Made by a program: the position numbers and the translations under genes. A model generated the notes under the pieces. That model did no database searches. It saw only the letters and a program-made list of their open reading frames with translations, and was not told the origin of the DNA. From Escherichia coli (GTDB taxonomy: Bacteria; Pseudomonadota; Gammaproteobacteria; Enterobacterales; Enterobacteriaceae): a stretch of DNA of 64,000 nucleotides. This document shows, one piece after another, positions 27,027 to 28,338 of the stretch. Within the stretch, counting starts at the first letter, position 1, and every line of letters begins with the position of its first letter. Where the stretch lies: the NCBI RefSeq assembly GCF_024700885.2, contig NZ_CP117016.1; one strand, 5' to 3'.

Positions 27027-28163
27027 ATGGAGCTTAAAAAATTGATGGAACATATTTCTATTATCCCCGATTACAGACAAGCCTGGAAAGTGGAAAATAA
27101 ATTATCGGATATTCTACTGTTGACTATTTGTGCCGTTATTTCGGGTGCGGAAGGTTGGGAAGATATAGAGGATTTTGGGGAAACACATCTCGATTTTTTA
27201 AAACAATACGGTGATTTTGAAAATGGTATTCCTGTTCACGATACCATCGCCAGAGTTGTATCCTGTATCAGTCCTGCAAAATTTCACGAGTGCTTTATTA
27301 ACTGGATGCGAGATTGCCATACTTCAGATGATAAAGACGTCATCGCAATTGATGGAAAAACACTCCGGCATTCTTATGACAAGAGTCGCCGCAAGGGAGC
27401 GATTCATGTCATTAGTGCGTTCTCAACAATGCACAGTCTGGTTATCGGACAGATCAGGACGGATGAGAAATCCAATGAGATCACAGCTATCCCTGAACTT
27501 CTTAACATGCTGGATATTAAAGGAAAAATCATCACAACTGATGCGATGGGTTGCCAGAAAGATATTGCGGAGAAGATACAAAAACAGGGCGGTGATTATT
27601 TATTCGCTGTAAAAGGAAACCAGGGGCGGCTAAATAAAGCCTTCGAGGAAAAATTTCCGCTGAAAGAATTAAATAATCCAGAGCATGAGAGTTACGCAAT
27701 TAGTGAAAAGGGTCACGGCAGAGAAGAAATCCGTCTTCACATTGTTTGCGATGTCCTTGATGAACTTATTGATTTCATGTTTGAATGGAAAGGTCTGAAG
27801 AAATTATGCGTGGCAGTCTCCTTTCGGTCAATAATAGCAGAACAAAAGAAAGAGCCAGAAATGACGGTCAGAGATTATATCAGTTCTGCTGATTTAACCG
27901 CAGAGAAGTTCGCCACAGCAATCCGAAACCACTGGCACGTGGAGAATAAGCTGCACTGGCGTCTGGACGTGGTAATGAATGAAGACGACTGCAAAATAAG
28001 AAGAGGAAATGCAGCAGAATTATTTTCAGGGATACGGCACATCGCTATTAATATTTTAACGAATGATAATGTATTCAAGGCAGGGTTAAGACGTAAGATG
28101 CGAAAAGCAGCCATGGACAGAAACTACCTGGCGTCAGTCCTTGCAGGGAGCGGGCTTTCGTAA
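27027..28163 (+). mobile_element. ISAs1-family (H-repeat associated) transposase gene; element ends not resolved
   Basis: 378-aa ORF of the H-repeat/ISAs1 transposase type commonly found beside Rhs elements; low GC; a second partial copy of its 3' end lies at ~28256-28310. Confidence 0.7.
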
Positions 28164-28338
28164 TCTTGCCCTGGCTTTATTATCGAATTCGGTGACCGCC
28201 TTGACGGTCACTTCTGAGAAAGGCATTTACACAGAATGGTAAACAGACTCACAGAAACTACCTGGCATCAGTCCTTGCGGGGAGCGGGCTTTCGTAGTCT
28301 TACCCTGACTCTCCCCCGGCCCTAAACACAACCCCCAC

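What the first reader, a model, noticed from the sequence alone, without database searches (positions are those of the whole stretch)
28120..28310. Partial second copy of the H-repeat transposase 3' end just downstream of the element
The last ~45 bp of the transposase gene (aactacctggcgtcagtccttgcagggagcgggctttcgtaatcttgccctggct) recur with a few substitutions at ~28256-28310. This suggests a nested or tandem remnant of a second copy, or a rearrangement at the element boundary next to yafV.
Basis: seen in the sequence. Interest (0 to 1): 0.3.

Follow-up and report, generated by a model that had tools for sequence, protein, structure and literature searches.

The report
Nested insertion-sequence debris beside yafV
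The repeated stretch is real, but it is just the leftover tip of an older jumping-gene copy, separated from a newer intact copy by a scrap of a third, unrelated jumping gene; this is ordinary mobile-element wreckage at the edge of an E. coli genomic island.

Summary
A 60-nt direct repeat (28117-28176 and 28251-28310) matches at 55 of 60 positions, and no shuffle of the window produced a match.

Copy 1 is the true right end of an intact 1291-bp H-repeat (ISEc1-like, ISAs1 family) at 26883-28173.

Copy 2 is the last 57 bp (28251-28307) of a second, older H-repeat. It carries that element's own right inverted repeat. It meets the yafV flank at the same junction as the yafF fragment of K-12 and five other strains read, so it is one ancient insertion.

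The 77 bp at 28174-28250 are the right end of an IS1414-like (IS256-family) element that had inserted into the old H-repeat.

The intact H-repeat has no target-site duplication. Its exact terminus abuts an internal IS256 site. I infer an H-repeat transposition event followed by, or combined with, loss of the DNA to its left.

About 36-40 of 5,426 complete E. coli genomes share this layout. Variants with 329-bp or 0-bp IS256 fragments occur at the same locus.

This is non-functional insertion-sequence debris of a known kind. Interest is low.

The parts
26747..26882 (+). Orphan fragment of an Rhs core 3' end that forms the left flank of the intact H-repeat. It translates to ..QYDDESELHYNWHRYYNPGQG.
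   Evidence: Translation. Compare ..[22 protein letters not shown] in the upstream Rhs ORF. In strain 7/2 the same fragment runs 25 bp further before the H-repeat starts.
26883..28173 (+). Intact H-repeat, an ISEc1-like element of the ISAs1 family. It is 1291 bp with ends 5'-CAGGG...CCCTG-3'. It has no target-site duplication (left flank GGACAGGGAC, right flank GCTTTATTAT).
   Evidence: It is 98.1% identical over all 1291 bp to the copy that RefSeq names ISEc1 in strain MSB1_7A. The ends and a 10-bp duplication (GCGTTAAACA) were defined on the related copy in strain UTAK-15.
27027..28163 (+). Transposase ORF of the intact H-repeat, 378 aa.
   Evidence: NCBIfam NF033564 transpos_ISAs1, E = 1.2e-122. 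Pfam DDE_Tnp_1_assoc plus DDE_Tnp_1.
26883..26901 (+). Left terminal inverted repeat of the intact H-repeat (CAGGGAAAGATCACGTAAC).
   Evidence: 15 of the first 19 positions match the reverse complement of the right end.
28155..28173 (+). Right terminal inverted repeat of the intact H-repeat. It lies inside repeat copy 1.
28117..28176 (+). Repeat copy 1: the last 57 bp of the intact H-repeat plus 3 bp (GCT) of the adjoining IS256-family fragment.
28174..28250 (+). 77-bp right-end remnant of an IS1414-like (IS256-family) insertion sequence. It holds the last 13 codons (FIIEFGDRLDGHF*), the stop at 28215-28217, and a right inverted repeat ending ..AACAGACTC.
   Evidence: It aligns with the 3' end of elements annotated 'IS256 family transposase' in strains 6EVA and LHM10-1 and on plasmid p48B2a. 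The element terminus was defined by the IS1414 insertion with an 8-bp duplication in strain WP8-S17-ESBL-05. Translation.
28251..28307 (+). Repeat copy 2 proper: the last 57 bp, including the right inverted repeat, of an older H-repeat. It is cut off on its left by the IS256-family insertion.
   Evidence: It sits at the same offset (-64/-65) from the yafV anchor as in K-12 yafF and five other strains read.
28308..28338 (.). 31-bp flank between the old H-repeat terminus and the yafV stop codon. This junction recurs in every strain read that carries the old tail.
28339..29109 (-). yafV (2-oxoglutaramate amidase), the first core gene beyond the island border.
   Evidence: RefSeq annotation of the identical stretch in strain 1190. 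Pfam CN_hydrolase.

Best explanation
The second copy is inert debris: the solo right end of an old H-repeat (ISAs1 family). That element once sat at the right border of the aspV-yafV type VI secretion/Rhs island, 31 bp downstream of the yafV stop codon.

Shown:
(1) The old H-repeat/yafV junction is the same one seen in K-12, where the surviving fragment is the pseudogene yafF, and in five other strains read. It is one ancient insertion.
(2) An IS1414-like IS256-family element lies immediately to its left, with its right terminus joined to the old H-repeat 57 bp before that element's end. Only the last 77 bp of this element survive here.
(3) A younger, intact 1291-bp H-repeat lies with its exact right terminus (CCCTG) against an internal site of that IS256-family element. 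It has no target-site duplication.

Inferred:
- The IS256-family element inserted into the old H-repeat.
- Later the H-repeat transposase made the right-hand junction.
- The rest of the IS256-family element and the body of the old H-repeat were then lost in one of two ways. Either the event was an intramolecular 'adjacent deletion', or a simple insertion was followed by homologous recombination with another H-repeat upstream in the same orientation.
- The repeat has no function of its own.
For: The repeat is real. The intact element is 1291 bp with ISAs1-type inverted repeats and a full ISAs1 transposase.

Copy 2 shares the diagnostic bases of the K-12, WP8 and 6EVA old tail. It sits at offset -64/-65 from the same yafV anchor in the window, K-12, 6EVA, LHM10-1, wlxctx60, WP8 and 2012C-4502.

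The spacer aligns with the 3' end of IS256-family elements. A relative, IS1414, is caught as a simple insertion with an 8-bp duplication (CTATGGAC) in a full-length H-repeat only 6 bp away from the window's junction.

H-repeats do make simple insertions into other insertion sequences: the UTAK-15 copy carries a 10-bp duplication.

The H-repeat right terminus is joined with the same precision to four other sites:
- IS256 position -329 in MSB1_7A.
- The old tail at about -31 in 2012C-4502, which shares the window's left junction.
- IS256 position about -640 at the pptA locus.
- The pptA-side flank in K-12 ydcC, which lacks the duplication seen in UTAK-15.
This repeated precision points to a terminus-specific process.

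Left and right junctions of H-repeats at this locus are uncoupled. WP8 has the UTAK-15-type left junction but the old yafV-side right junction. That pattern is expected if H-repeats recombine with one another.

All three coding differences between the copies are synonymous. They therefore diverged as working genes, not by decay after a local duplication.

No promoter, terminator or Rfam match lies in 28174-28338. Some genomes, such as UTAK-15, lack the tail altogether, so it is dispensable.
Against: The order of events is inferred from end states. No genome among 5,426 holds the predicted intermediate, an IS256 5' part directly followed by an H-repeat left end.

The left junction of the IS256-family insertion is lost, so its 8-bp duplication cannot be checked here.

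Every H-repeat right junction examined tolerates 0-4 nt of microhomology if 1-2 flank bases are allowed. A break-repair origin is therefore not excluded.

A paper held in the library states that transposition of H-repeats has not been observed experimentally (PMC3032704).
Confidence: 0.85

Rival explanations
1. The downstream copy is part of the intact element's own terminal structure. On this view the real element is longer and ends at 28307.
For: Copy 2 keeps a near-intact right inverted repeat, with 18 of 30 positions matching the left end against 20 of 30 for copy 1. In principle it could serve as a surrogate end.
Against: The element bounded at 28173 is exactly 1291 bp. A related copy with those ends carries a 10-bp duplication. 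The 77 bp in between belong to an unrelated IS256-family element. The composite right end occurs at one place per genome in about 36-40 genomes, all read examples next to yafV, while H-repeat ends occur in nearly all genomes at a median of 3 places.
Confidence: 0.02
2. A recent local tandem duplication, by slippage or unequal exchange, copied the 3' end of the present H-repeat.
For: The copies are direct repeats only 134 nt apart.
Against: The copies differ at 5 of 60 positions, and the coding differences are all synonymous. Copy 2 carries the allele of the ancient K-12-type tail. Unrelated IS256-family sequence lies between them. The tail exists alone, without copy 1, in most E. coli genomes.
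Confidence: 0.02
3. The remnants are the same, but the junction between the H-repeat end and the IS256-family fragment was made by break repair rather than by the H-repeat transposase. A break in the IS256-family element was repaired by copying an intact H-repeat elsewhere to its end. The ends were then joined by microhomology to the resected IS256 side.
For: Junctions tolerate short microhomologies: GC in the window, G/GG in MSB1_7A, CTGG at pptA and GGGG in 2012C-4502. No simple-insertion intermediate was found. Transposition of H-repeats has not been observed experimentally (PMC3032704).
Against: Copying from an ectopic template should overrun the H-repeat end by variable lengths. Instead five independent junctions all fall within 0-2 nt of the terminus. 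A true transposition product with a 10-bp duplication exists.
Confidence: 0.1
4. The retained tail is kept because it does something, for example acting as the yafV terminator or 3' UTR element, or as a surrogate end that lets the intact copy mobilise flanking DNA.
For: The tail is retained next to yafV in the majority of E. coli genomes.
Against: No terminator-like or promoter-like site and no Rfam match lie in 28174-28338. Many genomes lack the tail or keep only 15-40 bp of it. Retention is explained by the risk that larger deletions would hit yafV.
Confidence: 0.03

Closest known systems
H-repeat (H-rpt) / ISEc1, ISAs1 family, as found in the E. coli K-12 Rhs elements (ydcC, yhhI, ybfD and others)
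   Same: The length is 1291 bp, which equals the published H-rpt length (from my own knowledge of Zhao et al. 1993, not held in the library). The ends are CAGGG...CCCTG. The 378-aa transposase matches the ISAs1 equivalog model. The element lies just downstream of Rhs tips and orphan core fragments. It is 98% identical to a copy that RefSeq names ISEc1.
   Different: This copy has no target-site duplication. Its right flank is a fragment of another insertion sequence.
yafF (b4503) of E. coli K-12, the H-repeat fragment next to yafV (to my recollection the 'H-rpt min.5' of the older Rhs literature)
   Same: Copy 2 is the same insertion. It has the same right-end allele and the same junction with the yafV flank.
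   Different: K-12 keeps about 300 bp (H-repeat positions 992-1291) and has lost the island. The window keeps only 57 bp because an IS256-family element cut in. It still has the island plus a second, intact H-repeat.
IS1414 and its decayed relatives (IS256 family) in E. coli
   Same: The 77-bp spacer is the 3' end and right inverted repeat of such an element. IS1414 copies decayed by deletion are reported as widespread (PMC12585946).
   Different: The full-length counterpart of the spacer (6EVA-type element) is about 82% identical to elements annotated IS1414 and 97-98% identical to unnamed 'IS256 family' copies. Only 77 bp remain here, so nothing of the transposase core or the astA region is present.
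Insertion-sequence-mediated adjacent deletion, and recombination between directly repeated insertion sequences (classical behaviour of IS1, IS10, IS903 and others; from my own knowledge)
   Same: The junction starts exactly at the element's terminus. There is no target-site duplication. Different lineages show different deletion end-points from the same terminus.
   Different: This behaviour has not been demonstrated experimentally for H-repeats. Here it is inferred from comparison of natural genomes only.

Membership tests
ISAs1 family (H-repeat / ISEc1), intact copy 26883-28173 | Single ORF encoding a DDE transposase of the ISAs1 type | tested here: met
   NF033564 transpos_ISAs1, 409 bits against a cut-off of 70, covering model positions 1-314 of 314. 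Pfam PF13808 plus PF01609.
ISAs1 family (H-repeat / ISEc1), intact copy 26883-28173 | Short imperfect terminal inverted repeats and a length of about 1.2-1.5 kb | tested here: met
   The element is 1291 bp. 15 of the first 19 terminal positions are complementary, CAGGGAAAGATCACGTAAC against CAGGGCAAGATTACGAAAG.
ISAs1 family (H-repeat / ISEc1), intact copy 26883-28173 | Target-site duplication flanking the element | tested here: not met
   The flanks are GGACAGGGAC and GCTTTATTAT. A related copy in UTAK-15 has a 10-bp duplication, GCGTTAAACA. The lack here indicates a secondary rearrangement, not non-membership.
ISAs1 family, copy 2 (28251-28307) as a solo right end | Collinear homology to the last bases of an H-repeat, including the right inverted repeat and ending at the element terminus | tested here: met
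   53 of 57 positions match copy 1. The alignment with six other H-repeat ends terminates at CCC(T/C)G.
IS256 family (IS1414-like), fragment 28174-28250 | Homology to the transposase 3' end and right inverted repeat of elements whose transposase is of the Mutator/IS256 type | tested here: met
   The fragment aligns with a few substitutions to elements annotated 'IS256 family transposase'. The intact relative in WP8 scores 397 bits on PF00872 Transposase_mut.
IS256 family (IS1414-like), fragment 28174-28250 | 8-9 bp target-site duplication | not testable with these tools
   The left end of the element is deleted in the window. The relative IS1414 in WP8 shows an 8-bp duplication, CTATGGAC, in the same H-repeat region.

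The most novel reading that the evidence does not exclude
H-repeats (ISEc1) are generally regarded as transpositionally silent. On this reading they have been repeatedly active in natural E. coli, and there is a specific interplay with IS1414-like elements. Those elements land preferentially in the last ~65 bp of H-repeats. Five different junctions, all in the same orientation, were seen at two loci. The disrupted H-repeat is then 'healed' by a terminus-precise H-repeat event. This leaves the recurrent signature of intact H-repeat, then an IS256 3' fragment of variable length, then a short H-repeat tail.
Probability: 0.15. Interest if true: 0.35.

Novelty: already known. Interest (0 to 1): 0.1.

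Why it matters
It matters little beyond annotation.

- The unannotated 134 bp between the ISAs1 transposase gene and yafV consist of two insertion-sequence stubs.
- The H-repeat stub marks the ancient right border of the aspV-yafV type VI secretion/Rhs island. It can serve as a lineage marker for how that island was remodelled or lost, as in K-12.
- The comparative series of terminus-precise junctions is modest indirect evidence that H-repeats have been mobile in nature.

Tried and rejected
- **Search for the simple-insertion intermediate.** I built a chimeric query of the IS256 5' side up to GCTTTATTAT followed by the H-repeat left end. None of 5,426 genomes held it. The one-step and two-step routes therefore could not be separated.
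- **Test for obligatory targeting of H-repeat tails by IS256-family elements.** I took nine right ends from a search seeded with the IS256-family element itself. None of the nine is followed by H-repeat sequence. Any preference is at most partial, and my five positive cases are biased because the queries contained the tail.
- **Search for a function in 28174-28338.** The promoter/terminator scan and an Rfam E-value search of 25500-30000 gave nothing relevant. The only Rfam match was an archaeal snoRNA model at E = 0.66 inside the transposase gene.
- **Other IS256-family hits.** Fragments in CX12, YZMc17-1 and strain 190 turned out to lie at unrelated loci.
- **Literature.** Zhao et al. 1993, the original H-rpt description, is not held. 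Searches for H-repeat together with rhs or ISAs1 gave only passing mentions.
- **Rejected rivals.** The 'own terminal repeat' and 'recent tandem duplication' readings were rejected for the reasons given under rival explanations.

Full report
**Observation**

Reading 26400-29400 and running repeat finder on 26600-28500 confirm a single strong direct repeat. It spans 28117-28176 and 28251-28310, is 60 nt long, matches at 55 of 60 positions, and has 134-nt spacing. The right-end 22-mer GGGCTTTCGTARTCTTRCCCTG occurs exactly twice in the 64-kb window and never in 100 dinucleotide-preserving shuffles. The homology begins 5 nt earlier than stated.

**What copy 1 is**

- The ORF 27027-28163 is a full ISAs1-family transposase. 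It scores 409 bits on NF033564 and matches PF13808 plus PF01609.
- I defined the element ends from a related copy in strain UTAK-15. That copy is a simple insertion flanked by a 10-bp duplication: GCGTTAAACA|CAGGG...CCCTG|GCGTTAAACA.
- With those ends the window's element runs from 26883 to 28173. That is exactly 1291 bp, with imperfect terminal inverted repeats (15 of the first 19 positions).
- It is 98.1% identical to the copy that RefSeq names ISEc1 in strain MSB1_7A.
- Copy 1 is therefore the last 57 bp of this element plus 3 bp beyond it. It covers the last 13 codons, the stop, and the right inverted repeat.

**What copy 2 is**

- Copy 2 (28251-28307) is collinear with the last 57 bp of an H-repeat and ends at CCCTG. 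It is a solo right end.
- It encodes the same peptide as copy 1, [14 protein letters not shown]. The three coding differences are all synonymous.
- This means the two copies diverged while both were working genes. Copy 2 is not a decayed local duplicate of copy 1.
- Its diagnostic bases (CGTAGT..TTACCC) are those of the H-repeat end next to yafV in K-12 and WP8-S17-ESBL-05. They differ from those of intact ISEc1-type ends (CGTAAT..TT[G/T]CCC).
- Using the yafV-proximal anchor AAACTCATCCGCATCC, this right end lies at offset -64/-65 in the window, K-12 MG1655, 6EVA, LHM10-1, wlxctx60, WP8 and 2012C-4502.
- In K-12 the surviving fragment covers H-repeat positions 992-1291 and is 95.3% identical to the window's intact copy. 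It is annotated as the pseudogene yafF (b4503), next to yafV.
- Copy 2 is thus the stub of one ancient insertion. That insertion marks the right border of the island between aspV and yafV. The E. coli W genome paper lists an Rhs element in this b0215-b0221 region, present in W and absent from K-12 (PMC3032704).

**What lies between the copies**

- A megablast of 28100-28420 against 5,426 complete E. coli genomes showed that the spacer matches DNA annotated as IS256-family transposase.
- Alignment with 6EVA, LHM10-1 and plasmid p48B2a shows what 28174-28250 (77 bp) contains. It is the last 13 codons (FIIEFGDRLDGHF*), the stop, and the right inverted repeat of such an element.
- The element's terminus (..AACAGGCTC) is fixed by two observations:
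  - the point where the plasmid and chromosomal contexts diverge;
  - an IS1414 copy in WP8 that is a simple insertion with an 8-bp duplication, CTATGGAC.
- That IS1414 copy sits in a full-length H-repeat only 6 bp from the window's junction.
- The full-length counterpart in 6EVA is about 82% identical to elements annotated IS1414 and 97-98% identical to unnamed IS256-family copies.
- Decayed IS1414 copies are reported as widespread in E. coli (PMC12585946).

**How the present arrangement arose**

The intact H-repeat has no target-site duplication. Its left flank is GGACAGGGAC, part of an orphan Rhs core-end fragment (..WHRYYNPGQG). Its right flank is GCTTTATTAT, an internal IS256 sequence. 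It is therefore not a simple insertion.

The same kind of terminus-precise right junction recurs elsewhere:

| Strain / locus | What the H-repeat end CCCTG abuts |
|---|---|
| MSB1_7A, yafV locus (a common type) | IS256 fragment 329 bp from its end, then a 22-bp tail and a 15-bp older tail |
| 2012C-4502, yafV locus (same left junction as the window) | the old tail directly, about 31 bp from its end |
| LR536431, unrelated pptA locus | IS256 fragment about 640 bp from its end, then a 16-bp tail at the native flank |
| K-12 ydcC, pptA locus | the pptA-side flank, without the duplication seen in UTAK-15 |

Five independent junctions all fall within 0-2 nt of the terminus. This argues for a terminus-specific, transposase-made joint rather than random deletion.

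Two routes would remove the DNA to the left:
- an intramolecular adjacent deletion;
- an ordinary insertion into the IS256-family element, followed by homologous recombination with an upstream H-repeat in the same orientation.

Recombination among H-repeats at this locus is supported by uncoupled left and right junctions. WP8 has the UTAK-15-type left junction but the ancient yafV-side right junction.

I could not separate the two routes. No genome holds the simple-insertion intermediate (0 of 5,426). A break-repair route with microhomology joining is not excluded. It would be expected to overrun the H-repeat end by variable amounts, which is not seen.

**Distribution**

- The exact composite occurs once per genome in about 36-40 of 5,426 genomes; every example read lies next to yafV. 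These include strain 1190, which is 100% identical over the stretches compared.
- The left junction is shared by 156 genomes, some at another Rhs locus.
- Most genomes carry the K-12-type arrangement, the MSB1_7A-type arrangement, or no tail at all.

**Function**

No function is indicated. No promoter-like or terminator-like site and no Rfam match lies in 28174-28338. The tail is absent or reduced to 15-40 bp in many genomes.

**Comparison with what is known, and verdict**

- The intact copy is a member of the ISAs1 family (H-repeat/ISEc1).
- Copy 2 is the same insertion as K-12 yafF.
- The spacer is a decayed IS1414-like IS256-family end.
- Nested and truncated insertion sequences at island borders and downstream of Rhs genes are a well-known kind of feature.

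The only mildly unexpected point is the recurrence of the pattern 'intact H-repeat, IS256 3' fragment, H-repeat tail' at two loci. IS256-family junctions occur at five positions within the last 65 bp of H-repeats. A sample seeded on the IS256-family element found no such association in nine right ends. I therefore treat the pattern as a lead, not a finding.

Noticed in passing
L016 (NZ_LR536431.1) 2960-3740; compare window 28117-28310: The same three-part pattern occurs at an unrelated locus, ydcC/pptA next to RhsE. There an intact H-repeat end is followed by about 640 bp of the 3' part of the IS1414-like element, then a 16-bp H-repeat tail at the native K-12 flank.
   Followed up: partly
Window 28250/28251; L011 5768-5790; L010 5778-5790; L006 5075-5120; L016 3700-3720: IS256-family right ends are joined to H-repeat tails at five different distances from the H-repeat terminus: -65 (with an 8-bp duplication), -57, -40, -22 and -16. 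All are in the same orientation. This may be a target preference or a series of adjacent deletions. A sample of nine right ends seeded on the IS256-family element showed no H-repeat flank, and my positive cases are biased by the query.
   Followed up: partly
L025 (K-12 NC_000913.3) 4660-4680 and 5950-5975, compared with L005 3770-3790 and 5065-5085: K-12 ydcC has the same left junction as the UTAK-15 copy (inside the ISAs1 pseudogene yncI) but lacks the 10-bp duplication on the right. The rest of yncI is missing exactly from the H-repeat terminus. This looks like an adjacent deletion in the reference strain itself.
   Followed up: partly
Window 26873-26883, compared with L014 4318-4350: Relative to strain 7/2, the window lacks 25 bp (GATATATCACACAGACCCGATAGGG) immediately abutting the H-repeat left terminus. 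In strain 7/2 the H-repeat starts right after the ..QDPIG-like end of an orphan Rhs core fragment.
   Followed up: no
L006 (MSB1_7A) 4700-5125: Three H-repeat right ends lie in a row upstream of yafV: the intact ISEc1 end, a 22-bp tail after the 329-bp IS256 fragment, and a further 15-bp stub of the ancient tail. This type appears far more common than the window's type.
   Followed up: partly
Window 22117-26746: The Rhs gene upstream is broken into several ORFs (22117-23562, 23585-24304, 24356-26065). RefSeq calls the identical stretch in strain 1190 a frameshifted pseudogene. It ends in a short tip of about 55 aa after the DPLGL motif. Two small ORFs follow (82 aa at 26099-26347 and 132 aa at 26348-26746) with no NCBIfam match. 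The 132-aa ORF directly follows an intact Rhs gene in strain 7/2, as an immunity gene would.
   Followed up: no
L009 (strain 190) 3977-5901: An IS256-family fragment lies immediately upstream of an ISAs1-family pseudogene inside an O-antigen gene cluster. This is another place where these two element types sit side by side.
   Followed up: no
L011, plus hits H161-H166: In several genomes an IS1414 copy annotated with an uninterrupted transposase CDS lies next to yafV. The one read (L011) sits inside the H-repeat. This border is still being hit by active elements.
   Followed up: partly
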